A stretch of 6,937 nt of DNA from a virus. Lineage: Duplodnaviria > Heunggongvirae > Uroviricota > Caudoviricetes. The notes beneath the pieces are model-generated. The model saw nothing but the letters and a program-made list of their open reading frames with translations, made no database searches and had not been told where the DNA came from. The stretch is from the IMG/VR virus record IMGVR_UViG_648276648_000006; one strand, written 5' to 3'. Numbering within the stretch: position 1 is the stretch's first letter; the number at the start of each line of letters is the position of its first letter. Shown one piece after another: positions 302 through 6,860 of the stretch. The translations under genes and the position numbers were made by a program.

Positions 302-868
302 GACGGCGATATTACAGCGACCGTAACCTTTGCCGGACTGGACTGGGAATCAAAGGCCGATGATACGAATTTTATCAAAGGCGAACCTGTGGATAGTGCA
401 GGAAAGCTACGTTATTCGTTTAAGGAGGTTTCAGCAGTAAGCCTGAATGGTGTTGCCGGAGGTAACGGTTTTTGTATCGACAGTTTTGATATTCAGTTCG
501 ATAACAAACTCCAGACACAGCGTTGTATCGGGACTGGCTCGCCTTATGCAGGAGCAAATATTCCGACTACTTTTACACCGTCCGGTACGGTGACGCTTTC
601 ATGGTCTAAAGCCGCGTGGGAAATCTGGAGTAAAACACTGACTGGAGAAACAGTTCCGTTCAGCTTCACGCTTTCGAATGGAGAGGGGGCATACACTTTC
701 AGTTTCCCGAAGGTTCAGGTGTCAGGTGAATGGCCTGATGGGGGTAATAGCGACATTATCCAGGTTCAATTGAGCATTACCGCAGCAGATGAAGCACCTA
801 CGATAACCAGAAAAAAAAATTCCCCGGCTGCCGTGATCGCAAAAGCCAGTGCTGAGGCGATTAGTTGA
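302..868 (+). pseudogene. Phage major tail (tube) protein gene, 3' portion only; 5' part displaced by the IS insertion
   Basis: Frame is open from the IS junction to TGA at 866-868 (internal GTG at 389 is the ORF-track start). Translation DGDITATVTFAGLDWESKADDTNFIKGEPVDSAGKLRYSFKEVSAV...FSFPKVQVSGEWPDGGNSDIIQVQLSITAADEAPTITRKK... is protein-like. It sits directly upstream of the G/G-T chaperone pair, where lambda-like phages place gene V. No native start or RBS exists downstream of the IS. The functional name is inferred from position, not from recognised sequence identity. Confidence 0.6.
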
Positions 869-916: not shown

Positions 917-1378
917 ATGAGGTTATGGATGTTTATTCTTAATCAGAAAATTATCATTGGTGGAGAACGCTGGTTTACGCCAATGAAGGACTTAAAACCT
1001 GTAGACGGGTTAAAACTGTTGGTGGCAAGCAGCGATAACGATCAGTATCGCTCCCGTAATGCATTAATCCGTCGCCACATTGAGAAAATGGATGCCAGTT
1101 TGCACGTCGGAACGAAGGAGTTTGATATTTCAAAGGTTTCCGAGGTGGATTCTGTTGATGATTTACTCATTGATAATGCCGCTCGTTATCTGCTGAAAGA
1201 CTGGAAAGGGGTTGGTGAACTGGTTAATGGTGTTGAGGTTGCACTGGAATATACGGCAGAACGAGGGATCGCGCTGCTCAAGCAGAATCCAGAGTTGTAC
1301 TGGCAGATCCTTGCAGAAGCAGCCAGCATCGCCCAGGGTAAAGAGCAGCAGAAGCAGGATACGATAAAAAAGCCATAG
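917..1378 (+). CDS. Tail assembly chaperone, gpG-like
   Basis: 153-codon ORF between the tail tube gene and the tape measure gene. GGGGGA at 903-908 is a Shine-Dalgarno 8 nt upstream of ATG 917 (alternative ATG at 929). Ends in a slippery heptamer followed by an open -1 frame, the hallmark of G/G-T chaperone pairs. Confidence 0.65.
   Translation: MRLWMFILNQKIIIGGERWFTPMKDLKPVDGLKLLVASSDNDQYRSRNALIRRHIEKMDASLHVGTKEFDISKVSEVDSVDDLLIDNAARYLLKDWKGVGELVNGVEVALEYTAERGIALLKQNPELYWQILAEAASIAQGKEQQKQDTIKKP
1366..1372 (+). promoter_or_regulatory. Candidate programmed -1 ribosomal frameshift site (slippery heptamer A_AAA_AAG)
   Basis: A AAA AAG in the G zero frame (codons AAA 1367-1369, AAG 1370-1372), 2 codons before the G stop (TAG 1376-1378). 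The -1 frame is open from 1342 to 1686. Confidence 0.6.
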
Positions 1379-1686
1379 CTGCCCAGCGGTGGTTATCGGA
1401 GTTCGGGGGAGAAAGGGGGGAAAAGGCAAGATGGAAGCGAGAAAAACTCAGGTTGCCACCGATACCGGAACCAGAAATAGACCCGGTGCTTAAGGAGTTG
1501 TTGTACGCCTATTCGGTAATATCCCGTGCCCGACGTTATGCTGGAATGGCTGGGGTGCCTTTGCCTTTATCTCTGACAGAGATAAATGAATATTTAGCCA
1601 CTCATCCGGTATTGATTGAGCGCGATGAATTTGAAGCAGTGATCTTTGCACTGGATGACCAGTATTTTCAGGAGCAGTGTGTGTAG
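1369..1686 (+). CDS. T-like extension of the tail assembly chaperone, expressed as a G-T fusion by -1 frameshifting (not independently initiated)
   Basis: The -1 frame relative to G reads ...AIAAQRWLSEFGGERGEKARWKREKLRLPPIPEPEIDPVLKELLYAYSVISRARRYAGMAGVPLPLSLTEINEYLATHPVLIERDEFEAVIFALDDQYFQEQCV, stop TAG 1684-1686. No ATG start: the ORF-track start at 1453 is TTG. Position immediately upstream of the tape measure gene matches the conserved G/G-T arrangement. Confidence 0.6.
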   Translation, partial: KAIAAQRWLSEFGGERGEKARWKREKLRLPPIPEPEIDPVLKELLYAYSVISRARRYAGMAGVPLPLSLTEINEYLATHPVLIERDEFEAVIFALDDQYFQEQCV

Positions 1687-1806: not shown

Positions 1807-1830
1807 AAACCCACTTCGGTGGGCTTTTTG
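1807..1830 (+). terminator. Candidate intrinsic terminator or stable RNA hairpin in the T-H spacer
   Basis: CCCAC (1810-1814), loop TTCG (1815-1818), GTGGG (1819-1823), then C and TTTTT (1825-1829). This is a 5-bp GC stem with a UUCG tetraloop followed by a U-tract, flanked by AAA/TTT that could extend the stem. Confidence 0.4.
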
Positions 1831-1849
1831 TTGTCTGGAGTTTTAATAA

Positions 1850-4800
1850 ATGGCAGAGCAAACCTCGCGTCTCGCAATAATTATTGATAGCACTGGAGCA
1901 AAAAATAATGCTGACAATCTGACCTCCTCATTAGTCAAAATGACGCAGGCCGGGGAAACTGCTGCAAATAGCGCAGGGAAAGTGACTAAGGCAACAGAAG
2001 ATGAGAAGAACGCGCTCGCAAAATTAAAAGCAGCTATTGATCCAGTTGGTGCCGCAATTGATACTGTCGGTCGACGCTATTCTGAATTAAAGAAATTTTT
2101 CGATAAAGGGCTTATTGATAAAGAAGAATATGAATTTCTTGTCCGTAAACTTAATGAAACCACAGAGGAATTGAGCGGGGTTGCGCAAGCGCAGAGAGAA
2201 GCCGAGAAGGCCGGAAAACTTGCTGCCGCCCAGCAGGAATCGCAGGCTCAGGCCTTTCAAAGAATGCTGGACAAGATCGACCCTCTGGTTGCGGCGCTAA
2301 GAAATCTTGAACAACAGCAGGATGAACTTAATGCTGCGTTTGCATCCGGGAAAATAAATGGTTCTCAGTTTGAGAATTATAGCCGAAAAATACAGGAAAC
2401 ACGGCGAGAGCTTACCGGAGAGGCTCAGGCAGAGCGAGAAGCAGCAAAAGCGCATGATGAACAGGTTGCTGCTTTGCAACGTCTGATTGCTCAACTTGAC
2501 CCTGTCGGAACTGCTTTTAATCGTCTGGTAGAACAACAGAAACAGCTCAATGAAGCAAAAGCTAAGGGGATGCTCTCTCCTGAAATGTATGAGGAACTTT
2601 CTGGAAAACTTCGTGCTATGCGGAGTGAGCTTGAGGTTACTCAATCTCAATTAAGCAAAACCGGAATGTCGGCAAAACAAACGGCTTTTGCTATGCGCAT
2701 GTTGCCTGCACAAATGACGGATATTGTTGTTGGGTTGTCCACTGGTCAGTCGCCTTTTATGGTGTTAATGCAGCAGGGCGGCCAGCTAAAAGATATGTTC
2801 GGTGGGATTGGCCCGGCGATCAAAGGTGTTGGTTCTTATGTGCTGGGATTAATTAATCCTTTTACCCTGGCCGCAGCAGCCGTTGGCGTCTTAGGGCTGG
2901 CTTACTATAAAGGCTCTCAGGAGCAGGACGAATTTAATAAATCTCTTATTCTTACCGGAAATCAGTTGGGGACAACCAGCGGGCAATTGGCCGATATAGC
3001 TCAACGTGCCGGGAATGCGGCTGATTCGACAACTGGCGCTGCGGCGGCAGTATTAAACCAGCTTGTGCGTTCGGGAAAGGTAGCGAGCAGTTCGCTGGAG
3101 CAAGTGACGACAGCGATAGTAAAAACGAGCGAAGTAACAGGAATATCAACCGAACAACTGGTTAATGACTTCAATGAAATTGCAAAGGATCCTGTCAGTG
3201 CCATATCAAAACTTAATGATCAGTACCATTTTCTGACAATTGCGACTTATAACCAGATTAAGGCGCTACAGGATGAAGGGAACCAGCAGGAGGCCGCCCG
3301 CATTGCGACAGAAGCATACTCATCCTCAATGATCCAGCGCACCAACCAGATTAAAGAAAATCTTGGTTATCTTGAGACTGCATGGAAAGCTGTCGCAGAC
3401 TCCGCAAAATGGGCATGGGATTCCATGCTGGATATTGGCCGTGAGGCCTCCCTTGATCAAAAAATCTCAGATGTTCTCCGTCAAATTGATGAAATAGAAA
3501 AAAATACCCGACCCGGAGTTTTCGGGTTAGGTGGCATTGGAGATGGCGGAGCTCAAAATAAAAGGCTGGCACGATTAAAGCAGCAATTGGGCGTACTTCA
3601 AGCAGAAAAAATTGCTCAGGACGTACTAAATTCATCAATAAACGATTACAACAAGCGACAACAGGAAGGAATTGAACTCAGACAGAGAGCAGATGCCTTT
3701 TCAAAACAATATCAGACCCGGGAGCAGCAGAGAGCTAGTGAACTTGCAAAACTGGAAAAACTAAAGAGTCAGTATTCAAAGGAAGAATATAATAATCTTA
3801 TCGCTCAAATAAATGAGCGTTATAAAGATCCAAAGCAACCAAAGGCGAAAGGTTATTCGGATGATGCTGCCCAACGAATGATTGATCATCTGAATCAACA
3901 GAATGCGTTACTAAGTTCACAAACTGAATTAACCGTTAAATTAAGTTCCTCTGAACAGGAACTGGTTAAGTGGCGTCAGCAGATTGCCGACCTGGAGTCA
4001 CGACCGTCATCGAAATTAACCAAGGATCAGAAATCGCTTCTCTTACACCGGGAAGAAATAACCGCGTTGATGGAGAAAAATGTTGCGATTGAAAAAAATA
4101 ACAGGCTAATCAAGGAATCCGCCGAAATAGCTGCATGGCGTGATTCATTGCAGGCTTCGATTGATAATCGTCAACAGGGGTATGATATTCAGATTGCTGG
4201 TTATGGGGTTGGCGATAAAAATCAGCAACGCCAGCAGGAATTACTGCGGATTGAACGTGAATATAACAATCAGCGTCTGCAACTTGAACGTGACTATGCA
4301 GATAAATCCCGTGGGATGTCAAATCATGTTTTTCAGGAGAAAATGCAGGCTCTGAATGATGCTCTGGAACGAGAAAAAGAAATTGTCAGACAGAAAAACG
4401 AGCAGCTCGATATTCAGGCAGGAGACTGGGTTAGTGGTGCCTCCCAGGGATTCAATAACTGGCTGGATGACACTAAGGATATCAGTGAGCAGATAAAATC
4501 AACCACGACTCAGATGTTTGATGGAATGACCGATGCGCTGGGTGATTTTGTCACGACAGGCAAGGCAAATTTTCGTTCTTTCGCTACTTCCGTGATTTCG
4601 GATCTTAGTCGAATAGCATTAAAGGCTTCAATTACTCGGATTTTCGACAGCATTAGTAACAGTTCTTCGGGGGGGATTTTAGGAACTATCGGGAGTGCTA
4701 TTAGTAAATTTATTCCGAATGCAAAGGGCGGTGTTTATGAGTCTCCGTCATTGAACACGTATTCGAACGGTATTTATGATTCCCCGCAATTTTTTGCTTT

Positions 4801-5083
4801 TGCAAAAGGGGCTGGTGTTTTTGGTGAGGCTGGTCCGGAAGCCATTATGCCATTAACACGAACTTCCGATGGTTCTCTTGGTGTCAGAGCTATTAATAGT
4901 AAAAGTGGTAATGGAGGCGGAGATATTACCTATGCCCCTGTATACCAAATCACTATTCAAAATGACGGCCAGAATGGAGAGATTGGCCCTCAGGCAATAA
5001 AAGCACTTATGGGGATGGTTGATCAGCGGGTGCAGGGCAATCTGTTAAATATGCGACGTGATGGGGGAATGTTAAGTGGCTAA
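1850..5083 (+). CDS. H: Tail length tape measure protein (lambda gpH family), 1077 aa
   Basis: GGAG at 1837-1840 upstream of ATG 1850. Translation contains ...[41 protein letters not shown]... and C-terminal ...[20 protein letters not shown]...[10 protein letters not shown], matching lambda gpH motifs (MRMLPAQFTD...GGQSPWLILLQQGGQVKDSFGG; ...NNDGTNGQIGPAALKAV...MRDGGLFSG). Long coiled-coil-like, Q/E/K-rich central region is typical of tape measure proteins. The stop overlaps the M start. Confidence 0.95.
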
Positions 5084-6116: not shown

Positions 6117-6860
6117 ATGACAGAGACAGAATCAGCGATTCTGGCGCACGCCCGGCGATGTGCGCCAGCGGAGTCGTGCGGCTTCGTGGTGAGAACGCCG
6201 GAAGGGGAAAGATATTTTCCCTGCGTGAATATCTCCGGTGAGCCGGAGGCGTATTTCCGGATGGCTCCGGAGGACTGGCTGCGGGCAGAAATGCAGGGTG
6301 AGATTGTGGCGCTGGTCCACAGTCACCCCGGTGCTCTGCCCTGGCTGAGTGAGGCCGACCGGCGGCTGCAGGTGCAGAGTGATTTGCCGTGGTGGCTGGT
6401 CTGCCGGGGGGCGATTCACAAGTTCCGCTGTGTGCCACATCTTACCGGGCGGCGCTTTGAGCACGGGGTGACGGACTGTTACACGCTGTTCCGGGATGCT
6501 TACCATCTGGCGGGAATTGAGATGCCTGATTTTCATCGTGAGGATGACTGGTGGCGTCACGGTCAGAATCTCTATCTGGATAATATGGAGGCAACGGGGC
6601 TGTATCAGGTGCCGTTGTCAGCGGCGCAGCCGGGCGATGTGCTGCTGTGCTGTTTTGGTTCATCGGTGCCGAATCATGCCGCTATTTACTGCGGCGACGG
6701 CGAGCTGCTGCACCATATTCCTGAACAACTGAGCAAACGAGAGAGGTATACCGACAAATGGCAGCGACGCACACACTCCCTCTGGCGTCACCGGGCATGG
6801 CACGTATCTGCCTTTACGGGGATTTGCAACGATTTGGCCGCCGCATCGACCTTCGTGTGA
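6117..6860 (+). CDS. K: Tail assembly protein K (lambda gpK family), with JAMM/MPN metalloprotease-like and NlpC/P60 domains
   Basis: Translation MTETESAILAHARRCAPAESCGFVV...EIVALVHSHPGALPWLSEAD (JAMM motif HxHx7Sx2D, His codons at 6318-6326)...GVTDCYTLF (NlpC/P60 Cys, about 6477-6479)...VPNHAAIY. Near-identical to lambda gpK as I recall it. Starts 5 nt after the L stop. Confidence 0.95.
   Translation: MTETESAILAHARRCAPAESCGFVVRTPEGERYFPCVNISGEPEAYFRMAPEDWLRAEMQGEIVALVHSHPGALPWLSEADRRLQVQSDLPWWLVCRGAIHKFRCVPHLTGRRFEHGVTDCYTLFRDAYHLAGIEMPDFHREDDWWRHGQNLYLDNMEATGLYQVPLSAAQPGDVLLCCFGSSVPNHAAIYCGDGELLHHIPEQLSKRERYTDKWQRRTHSLWRHRAWHVSAFTGICNDLAAASTFV

What the first reader, a model, noticed from the sequence alone, without database searches (positions are those of the whole stretch)
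1342..1686. G/G-T tail chaperone recoding site using A_AAA_AAG rather than the lambda heptamer
The heptamer A AAA AAG (1366-1372) lies 2 codons before the G stop, and the -1 frame stays open for 105 further codons to 1686 with no ATG of its own. This fits the conserved programmed -1 frameshift that produces a G-T fusion at low ratio in long-tailed phages. The heptamer is the same highly slippery motif used in E. coli dnaX, whereas lambda uses G GGA AAG as I recall.
Basis: partly seen in the sequence, partly recalled or inferred. Interest (0 to 1): 0.45.

Follow-up and report, generated by a model that had tools for sequence, protein, structure and literature searches.

The report
Unannotated tail-chaperone frameshift site, Rac-type prophage
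This is the usual "G / G-T" programmed -1 ribosomal frameshift that long-tailed phages use to make two tail-assembly chaperones from one message, here in the Rac-type prophage carried by about a fifth of complete E. coli genomes; the site looks real but is ordinary, and public annotation misses it.

Summary
A_AAA_AAG (1366-1372) is in X_XXY_YYZ phase in the ORF ending at TAG 1376-1378. The -1 frame is open from 1342 to 1686. One detail is wrong: the -1 frame has an ATG at 1546, although its first start-type codon of any kind is TTG 1453.

The ORFs lie between the tail-tube and tape-measure genes of a Rac-type lambdoid prophage. RefSeq calls the upstream ORF "YdaY".

Comparative evidence for recoding is strong:
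- 79 of 80 IMG/VR relatives, plus Klebsiella, Citrobacter, Dryocola and Entomohabitans relatives, keep the heptamer at the same codon.
- A Raoultella relative and Acinetobacter phages have G_GGA_AAG at the homologous position.
- Third-position variation switches from the zero frame to the -1 frame at the heptamer, across 27 codons that contain no start codon in any relative compared.
- The zero-frame stop moves between relatives while the heptamer stays.
- The conceptual fusion matches PHROG 313 "tail assembly chaperone" end to end.

No conserved stimulatory RNA structure was found.

The proteins show no detectable homology to lambda G or T. A_AAA_AAG at a tail-chaperone shift site is already published for another E. 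coli prophage family (ECs1801) and for Paenibacillus phages. This is a new, unannotated member of a known kind, of low interest.

The parts
929..1378 (+). G-like tail assembly chaperone ORF (zero frame). It is 149 aa from ATG 929, or 153 aa from ATG 917. RefSeq annotates only 1019-1378 as 'YdaY'.
   Evidence: PHROG 313 'tail assembly chaperone', E=4e-46, profile positions 13-149 of 258. It lies between the tail tube and tape measure genes. The Met at 929 is conserved in relatives, and GAGG 919-922 lies 6 nt upstream.
1356..1359 (+). [quoted passage not shown] It is a possible weak upstream stimulator, unproven.
   Evidence: Invariant in 8 diverged relatives and absent in the Erwinia phage. It falls in the 6-17 nt window used for SD-like stimulators in PMC4066793. 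It also encodes conserved Gln-Glu/Asp, so its conservation cannot be attributed to an SD role.
1366..1372 (+). Slippery heptamer A_AAA_AAG, the -1 shift site.
   Evidence: Phased in the G frame. Conserved at the same codon in Klebsiella, Citrobacter, Dryocola, Entomohabitans, Shigella and E. ruysiae relatives and in 79 of 80 IMG/VR loci. Replaced by G_GGA_AAG at the same position in Raoultella and at the aligned column in Acinetobacter phages.
1372..1686 (+). T-like segment in the -1 frame (104 codons plus TAG). It can be translated only as the C-terminal extension of G, giving a G-T fusion of 252 or 256 aa with junction ...DTIKK|AIAAQRW...
   Evidence: PHROG 1189, E=1e-36. The fusion matches PHROG 313 over positions 13-246 at E=6e-51. 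Across 1372-1452 the -1 frame shows 72% aa identity at 65% nt identity, with 75 synonymous and 52 non-synonymous codon differences, against 21/120 and 7/125 in the other two frames. No start-type codon occurs for 81-174 nt in any relative compared.
1373..1399 (+). Local hairpin (-11.3 kcal/mol) starting 1 nt after the heptamer. It is probably incidental.
   Evidence: Predicted. The 68-nt region is no more stable than shuffles (z = +1.5). The hairpin is not conserved and shows no covariation in relatives, and it sits too close to the motif for the 4-10 nt spacing rule of PMC4066793.
1850..5083 (+). Tape measure protein gene (context). By analogy with lambda it is the presumed binding partner of the G domain.
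   Evidence: Pfam TMP_2 at 1e-81, Tape_meas_lam_C at 1e-25 and TMP_4.
389..868 (+). 3' part of the tail tube gene (context). By analogy with lambda it is the presumed partner of the T domain.
   Evidence: Pfam Phage_tube_2 at 1e-11. RefSeq annotates 'phage tail tube protein' ending at this position.

Best explanation
The G-like ORF and the -1 ORF form the tail assembly chaperone pair of a Rac-type lambdoid siphovirus prophage. Most ribosomes translate G (YdaY family) and stop at TAG 1376. A small fraction slip while tRNA-Lys occupies AAA (P site) and AAG (A site): both tRNAs re-pair one base back on A_AAA_AAG. Those ribosomes then read GCC at 1372 and continue for 104 codons in the -1 frame. 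The product is a G-T fusion with junction ...T-I-K-K-A-I-A-A-Q.... By analogy with lambda, the shared G part coats the tape measure protein and the rarer T extension recruits the tail tube protein. Shown here: the site, its phase, its conservation, and protein-level selection on the -1 frame directly from the site. Inferred: that slippage happens, its efficiency (probably from under 1% up to several per cent, since no conserved stimulator was found), and the chaperone roles.
For: The conceptual fusion aligns with PHROG 313 'tail assembly chaperone' over positions 13-246 of 258 at E=6e-51. The heptamer is phased and conserved, while the neighbouring codons vary (ATA/GTA before it, CCA/CCT/CCC after it) across at least six genera and in 79 of 80 IMG/VR loci. 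The heptamer is swapped for G_GGA_AAG at the same codon in Raoultella and in one IMG/VR locus. G_GGA_AAG also sits at the aligned Lys column in the Acinetobacter phages TRS1 and TCUAN1, and the TRS1 RefSeq record annotates a two-piece joined CDS spanning G and the -1 ORF (join coordinates not shown). Third-position variation switches from the zero frame to the -1 frame at the heptamer. The synonymous to non-synonymous codon counts are 75/52 in the -1 frame against 21/120 and 7/125 in the other frames, over the 27 codons that precede any start codon. The zero-frame stop moves (CCA TAG, CCA TCG..., CCA TTG..., or TAA directly) while the heptamer stays. Gene callers assign at least 9 different 'starts' to T homologues. 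From the literature: A_AAA_AAG, G_GGA_AAG and C_CCA_AAG are the best -1 heptamers in E. coli (PMC4066793; PMC5009743). G-T frameshifting is widely conserved in long-tailed phages despite low sequence similarity (PMC5009743).
Against: There is no direct evidence of the trans-frame protein: no proteomics, ribosome profiling or reporter assay. No conserved downstream structure was found and there was no Rfam match. On the motif alone, efficiency could therefore be as low as about 0.3% in some contexts (PMC4066793). There is no detectable sequence similarity to lambda G or T. The AlphaFold models were too poor to test fold similarity. Two distant relatives lack a canonical heptamer at the aligned site: Erwinia phage Gungnir39 has GCA AAG TAA, and the Pseudomonas phiPSA1 group has G_GAA_AAG.
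Confidence: 0.9

Rival explanations
1. T is an independent small gene started at an internal TTG or GTG (TTG 1453, or GTG 1486 as PGAP sometimes calls it). On this view the heptamer is coincidental.
For: RefSeq annotates a 66-aa 'hypothetical protein' at about window 1486-1686 in some genomes. Databases hold many stand-alone T-like ORFs.
Against: The 27-38 codons upstream of those starts carry a clear protein-coding signature in the -1 frame, beginning right at the heptamer. The putative starts are not conserved: the first start-type codon lies 81 to 174 nt after the slip site depending on the relative, and called N-termini differ at 9 or more positions. I see no SD before TTG 1453 or GTG 1486 in the sequence. 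The fusion is collinear with PHROG 313.
Confidence: 0.05
2. The frame change is made at the RNA level. RNA polymerase slips on the A6 run and inserts one A, so a subset of mRNAs encode G-T in a single frame.
For: Poly-A tracts can cause transcriptional realignment, and the products would be indistinguishable at the protein level (PMC3711429; PMC5009743).
Against: The run has only 6 A. The literature quoted puts productive slippage at runs of more than 7 A. Relatives replace the run with G_GGA_AAG at the same codon. That motif is a classic ribosomal slip site, not a homopolymer.
Confidence: 0.03
3. The layout is decay: a once continuous chaperone gene broken by a frameshift mutation in a defective prophage.
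For: The identical stretch sits in the 5'-truncated, defective Rac remnant of K-12. Some assemblies show indels in or near the A run (P0002, P0027).
Against: The same two-frame layout and the same site recur in about 1074 of 5426 complete E. coli genomes. They also recur in sequenced phage genomes and across genera at 55-70% identity, with purifying selection in both frames.
Confidence: 0.02

Closest known systems
Phage lambda G / G-T (slip site G_GGA_AAG)
   Same: Two overlapping ORFs lie between the major tail gene and the tape measure gene. A phased -1 heptamer ending in A_AAG sits near the 3' end of G. The downstream ORF has no start of its own. In lambda the shift is low-level, at a 30:1 ratio (PMC5009743; lambda sequence).
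   Different: The heptamer is A_AAA_AAG, and one sense codon rather than five separates it from the stop. There is no detectable homology: lambda G hits PF06894 and lambda T hits PF06223, this pair hits neither, and hhalign probability is 0.1-0.2%. Here a 163-nt gap with a terminator-like hairpin separates T from the tape measure gene, whereas lambda T and H overlap.
E. coli O157:H7 Sakai prophage Sp9 ECs1801/ECs1802 (cluster A_AAA_AAG_25 of Sharma et al. 2014, PMC4066793)
   Same: It is an E. coli lambdoid prophage tail assembly chaperone with a phased A_AAA_AAG at the very end of the gene. The -1 product is longer, and the authors judged -1 frameshifting 'safely inferred' (sequence AGA AAA AAG TAG).
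   Different: It is a different protein family: PF06222 Phage_TAC_1, with BLASTP E=1 against the window's G. There the stop follows the heptamer directly.
Acinetobacter phage vB_AbaS_TRS1 genes TRS1_18/19 (RefSeq annotates a two-piece joined CDS)
   Same: It shares sequence similarity with this G-T pair and was the annotators' reference for the Pseudomonas homologues. Its T part is 39% identical. Its candidate slip-site Lys aligns with K152 of the window's G, and a two-piece joined CDS spans G and the -1 ORF.
   Different: It uses G_GGA_AAG, and the zero frame runs 26 codons past the site.
E. coli dnaX gamma/tau frameshift
   Same: It has the identical heptamer and the same tRNA-Lys double slip (PMC3711429).
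   Different: dnaX has an SD 10 nt upstream (my recollection) and a strong downstream stem-loop. It shifts at about 50% and gives a shorter product. Here there is no conserved hairpin, only an AGGA at 7 nt, no Rfam hit, and the product is longer.
Paenibacillus larvae phage tail assembly proteins (PMC6003738)
   Same: AAAAAAG was tentatively identified as the G/G-T-like slip site.
   Different: They are Gram-positive phages. Their proteins were not compared here.

Membership tests
G/G-T type programmed -1 frameshift of long-tailed phage tail assembly chaperones (Levin 1993; Xu, Hendrix and Duda 2004) | Two ORFs located between the major tail (tube) gene and the tape measure gene | tested here: met
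   The tail tube gene ends at 868, G spans 929-1378, the -1 ORF runs to 1686 and the tape measure gene starts at 1850.
G/G-T type programmed -1 frameshift of long-tailed phage tail assembly chaperones (Levin 1993; Xu, Hendrix and Duda 2004) | [quoted passage not shown] | tested here: met
   A_AAA_AAG at 1366-1372 is the only phased heptamer in the 37-nt overlap.
G/G-T type programmed -1 frameshift of long-tailed phage tail assembly chaperones (Levin 1993; Xu, Hendrix and Duda 2004) | The downstream ORF is in the -1 frame, lacks its own initiation signals, and is under protein-coding selection from the slip site onward | tested here: met
G/G-T type programmed -1 frameshift of long-tailed phage tail assembly chaperones (Levin 1993; Xu, Hendrix and Duda 2004) | The architecture and a slip site are conserved in diverged relatives | tested here: met
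   including swaps from A_AAA_AAG to G_GGA_AAG at the same position.
G/G-T type programmed -1 frameshift of long-tailed phage tail assembly chaperones (Levin 1993; Xu, Hendrix and Duda 2004) | Both G and a minor trans-frame G-T product are made, both are needed for tail assembly, and both are absent from virions | not testable with these tools
   This needs reporter assays, proteomics and phage genetics.
Lambda gpG (Pfam PF06894) and gpT (Pfam PF06223) sequence families | A significant match to the family profiles | tested here: not met
   There is no hit at E<=0.1. In the positive control, lambda G and T hit these profiles at 9e-62 and 2e-14. hhalign probability is 0.1-0.2%.
PHROG 313 'tail assembly chaperone' | A significant match, collinear over the G and T parts of the profile | tested here: met
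   G alone scores 4e-46 over positions 13-149. The fusion scores 6e-51 over positions 13-246 of 258.
Pfam PF23812 Phage_TAC_18 | A score above the gathering cut-off of 27 bits | tested here: inconclusive
   The T part scores 20.7 bits at E=4.7e-4, covering profile positions 12-78 of 79, which is below the cut-off. No other family member tested scored higher.
dnaX-type frameshift cassette | A_AAA_AAG together with an upstream SD and a stable stem-loop 5-6 nt downstream | tested here: not met
   The heptamer is present and AGGA lies at 7 nt. There is no qualifying or conserved hairpin and no Rfam match at E<=1.

The most novel reading that the evidence does not exclude
This one chaperone family carries a natural series of shift sites at a single homologous codon. 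The series runs from A_AAA_AAG (most enterobacterial members) and G_GGA_AAG (Raoultella, Acinetobacter phages) to non-canonical sites: a bare A_AAG tetramer abutting a stop (Erwinia phage Gungnir39) and G_GAA_AAG (Pseudomonas phiPSA1 group). The position of the zero-frame stop also varies. If all of these are functional, the family would show how little sequence a low-level programmed shift needs. It would also mean the K-12 Rac remnant still carries a working recoding signal that has gone unannotated.
Probability: 0.3. Interest if true: 0.35.

Novelty: new member of a known kind. Interest (0 to 1): 0.2.

Why it matters
The main value is for annotation. The element is present in about 1074 of 5426 complete E. 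coli genomes, including K-12. In every RefSeq and phage record I inspected (a sample, not all records) the chaperone is called 'YdaY' with a start inherited from a truncated remnant. In those records the T part is either missing or called as a short hypothetical protein with an arbitrary start, and the fusion product is absent. Correcting this would give the YdaY family a function, tail assembly chaperone G/G-T, and add a well-supported case to frameshift training sets. It changes nothing about how such frameshifts are understood.

Tried and rejected
- Structure prediction. AlphaFold2 models of G (mean pLDDT 52.7) and T (61.5), built from 23- and 18-sequence alignments, were too poor to use. 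Foldseek against BFVD found nothing at E<0.1. Fold similarity to known chaperones therefore remains untested.
- Solved structures. A sequence-profile search of the PDB gave only noise, best E=0.15.
- Lambda homology. hhalign against lambda G and T gave no signal.
- NCBIfam. No hit.
- Downstream stimulatory RNA. I tried single-sequence folds, an RNAalifold consensus over 8 diverged relatives, and a scan using the hairpin rules of PMC4066793. None gave a conserved or unusually stable structure. Rfam gave no match at E<=1.
- Broad genome scan. The first genome-contig scan, with a 6-sequence alignment, failed for lack of conserved stretches. A narrower alignment returned 11 loci.
- Literature. Two searches linking ydaY or Rac to frameshifting found nothing relevant. 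Xu et al. 2004 is not held in the library, so I could not check whether it lists this family.
- Termination-reinitiation. Rejected, because there is no conserved start near the stop and the stop itself moves between relatives.

Full report
**What is in the sequence**

The ORF 917..1378 ends ...ACG ATA AAA AAG CCA TAG. A1366 is the third base of ATA, so A_AAA_AAG (1366-1372) is in the X_XXY_YYZ phase needed for a tandem -1 slip. One sense codon (CCA) separates it from TAG 1376-78.

The -1 frame is closed by TAA 1339-41 and then open to TAG 1684-86. That is 104 sense codons from the re-read G at 1372. The overlap is 37 nt, and this is the only phased heptamer in it.

There is an ATG at 1546, codon 59 after the slip site. 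The first start-type codon of any kind in that frame is TTG 1453, 81 nt after the site.

The bare heptamer is not rare: 2 are observed and 2.44 expected in the window. What is improbable is its phase and its position in a 37-nt overlap, roughly 0.002 expected occurrences by my arithmetic. What is decisive is its conservation.

**Context**

The window is the tail module of a Rac-type lambdoid prophage of E. coli. It is 100% identical to part of strain Z247. The gene order is:
- tail tube gene, ending at 868
- the G-like ORF
- the -1 ORF
- a 163-nt gap
- tape measure gene, 1850-5083
- M, L and K homologues

RefSeq calls only 1019-1378 "YdaY", starting from a TTG. That start is a legacy of the 5'-truncated Rac remnant of K-12, whose deletion joint lies near window 1027. 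Relatives and a GAGG at 919-922 point to ATG 929 as the real start.

The stretch 1300-1700 is 100% identical in K-12 strains and occurs in 1074 of 5426 complete E. coli genomes. No RefSeq or phage record that I inspected annotates a joined product. The T part is either missing or called as a 66-aa hypothetical protein from GTG 1486.

**Family assignment**

- G matches PHROG 313 "tail assembly chaperone" at 4e-46 over profile positions 13-149 of 258.
- The T part matches PHROG 1189 at 1e-36.
- The conceptual fusion made by a -1 slip at 1372 matches PHROG 313 over positions 13-246 at 6e-51. It is therefore collinear with a profile that includes fused products.
- Pfam gives only a sub-threshold hit of T to PF23812 Phage_TAC_18: 20.7 bits against a cut-off of 27.
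- The precomputed Pfam label for all G homologues is PF27119. That family is not in the local library, and the tools do not give its name.
- There is no similarity to lambda G (PF06894) or lambda T (PF06223). The positive control works, and hhalign probabilities are 0.1-0.2%.

The pair works like lambda G/G-T but is not a member of those sequence families.

**Comparative evidence for recoding**

- *Site conservation.* Relatives at 55-70% protein identity keep A_AAA_AAG at the same codon, while the codons around it vary (ATA/GTA before it, CCA/CCT/CCC after it). These relatives are Klebsiella phages, four Citrobacter species, Dryocola and Entomohabitans. In 80 IMG/VR loci the count is 79 AAAAAAG and 1 GGGAAAG.
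- *Motif swaps.* A Raoultella prophage has G_GGA_AAG at exactly this codon, changing VKK to VGK. The Acinetobacter phages TRS1 and TCUAN1 are distant members. Their T parts are 31-39% identical to the window's, and their G_GGA_AAG aligns to the same invariant Lys column. The TRS1 RefSeq record annotates a two-piece joined CDS spanning G and the -1 ORF. One good E. coli slip motif replacing another at a fixed position is what selection for slipperiness predicts. It also argues against transcriptional slippage on an A run.
- *Frame switch.* Across eight diverged sequences, variability peaks at zero-frame third positions upstream of the heptamer (0.36-0.60, against 0.03-0.26 at positions 1 and 2). 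It peaks at -1-frame third positions directly downstream (0.52-0.68).
- *Selection before any start codon.* I compared the 27 codons 1372-1452 between the window and seven relatives. None of the eight sequences has a start codon there.

| Frame | Mean aa identity to relatives | Synonymous / non-synonymous codon differences | Stops |
|---|---|---|---|
| -1 | 72% (nt identity 65%) | 75 / 52 | none |
| 0 | 33% | 21 / 120 | 1-3 in every sequence |
| +1 | 30% | 7 / 125 | present in 6 of the 8 sequences |

- *Moving stop.* The zero-frame stop is not fixed. It appears as CCA TAG, as CCA TCG... or CCA TTG... with the stop further on, or as TAA directly after the heptamer. The heptamer stays in place. 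This is unexpected if termination-reinitiation were the mechanism.
- *No conserved start.* The first start-type codon in the -1 frame lies 81 to 174 nt after the site, depending on the relative. Gene callers give T homologues at least nine different N-termini.

**Stimulators**

The 68 nt after the site fold no better than shuffles (z = +1.5). A local hairpin at 1373-1399 (-11.3 kcal/mol) begins 1 nt after the motif, is specific to the E. coli sequence, and shows no covariation. By the hairpin rules of PMC4066793 the window has no qualifying structure, and relatives have unrelated ones or none. Rfam gives nothing at E<=1.

[quoted passage not shown] That is inside the 6-17 nt window the same paper uses for SD-like stimulators. 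It is invariant in the eight relatives but also encodes conserved Gln-Glu/Asp, so a stimulatory role remains open.

On the motif alone the literature gives about 0.3% to 3.7%, depending on context (PMC4066793). Two tested tail-chaperone genes similar to HK97's gave 6% and 7% (PMC3711429). Lambda makes G and G-T at 30:1 (PMC5009743). I infer an efficiency from under 1% up to several per cent here.

**Mechanism (inferred)**

With tRNA-Lys on AAA in the P site and on AAG in the A site, both tRNAs re-pair one base upstream on A_AAA_AAG. Decoding resumes at GCC 1372 and gives ...DTIKK|AIAAQRWLSEF.... The fusion is 252 aa if G starts at ATG 929, or 256 aa if it starts at ATG 917. By analogy with lambda (PMC5009743), G and the G part of G-T bind the tape measure protein, and the T part recruits the tail tube protein. 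Neither is expected in the virion.

**Comparison with what is known, and novelty**

The G/G-T frameshift is a textbook feature of long-tailed phages and is "widely conserved... despite low sequence similarity" (PMC5009743). A heptamer different from lambda's is not new:
- Sharma et al. 2014 list a 53-gene cluster of prophage tail assembly chaperones in Enterobacteriaceae genomes with A_AAA_AAG (representative ECs1801) as "safely inferred".
- I confirmed AGA AAA AAG TAG in Sakai prophage Sp9. I also showed that it belongs to a different protein family: PF06222, with BLASTP E=1 against the window's G.
- AAAAAAG has also been proposed for Paenibacillus larvae phages.

I found no paper linking ydaY or Rac to frameshifting, and none of the inspected records annotates the fusion. 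This is a new, unannotated member of a known kind. Its value is annotational.

**Verdict**

- Novelty is low, and interest is about 0.2.
- The most novel reading still open is the natural series of canonical and non-canonical shift sites at one homologous codon: Erwinia GCA_AAG_TAA and Pseudomonas G_GAA_AAG. Their function is untested.

Noticed in passing
window 1810-1833 (+): A terminator-like element, CCCAC-UUCG-GUGGG followed by CTTTTTGTTG, lies in the 163-nt gap between the T stop (1686) and the tape measure start (1850). It sits inside what should be one late operon. In lambda, by contrast, T and H overlap.
   Followed up: partly
window 917-1027: RefSeq's 'YdaY' CDS (window 1019-1378, TTG start) appears to be a legacy of the truncated K-12 Rac remnant. 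Intact prophages have about 30 more N-terminal codons, starting at ATG 929 (GAGG 919-922 upstream, Met conserved in relatives) or ATG 917.
   Followed up: partly
window 1313-1357; protein P0009 (E. coli NB16F79_39920): One E. coli record has a 240-aa in-frame G-T fusion. Its sequence is explained by a 35-nt deletion between 10-bp direct repeats GCAGAAGCAG (1313-1322 and 1348-1357), inferred from the protein rather than from its DNA. The result is an obligate fusion with no free G, presumably tail-defective.
   Followed up: partly
L004:1680-1700 (Erwinia phage Gungnir39); L005:425-445 (Pseudomonas phage phiPSA1); L006 (phage Aurca01): Distant relatives lack a canonical heptamer at the aligned site. 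The Erwinia phage has GTC GCA AAG TAA, an A_AAG tetramer next to the stop. The Pseudomonas phages have CTG GAA AAG CCA (G_GAA_AAG), with the zero frame running 24 codons further, plus a C_AAA_AAA upstream. Which site is used is unknown.
   Followed up: partly
L014, L018, protein P0005, and IMG/VR loci L023-L102 at locus position about 1201: The zero-frame stop after the heptamer is not fixed. CCA TAG occurs in 62 of 80 loci, CCA TCG... in 9, CCA TTG... in 7, and TAA directly in 1. G therefore gains between 1 and about 35 extra C-terminal residues in different relatives, while the shift site stays put.
   Followed up: yes
protein P0043 (E. coli, 246 aa): Some Rac remnants carry an in-frame fusion of a ParB N-terminal domain to the C-terminal 110 or so residues of YdaY. 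This is another deletion product of the decaying prophage.
   Followed up: no
proteins P0002 and P0027 (Logan assemblies): Some assemblies read through in the +1 frame after ...DTIK, which is consistent with a one-base difference in the A run. This could be assembly error or real indel polymorphism at the slippery run; it was not resolved.
   Followed up: no
window 6117-6860 (+): The K-like protein carries both a JAB/MPN domain (PF14464) and an NlpC/P60 domain (PF00877). It is 247 aa.
   Followed up: no
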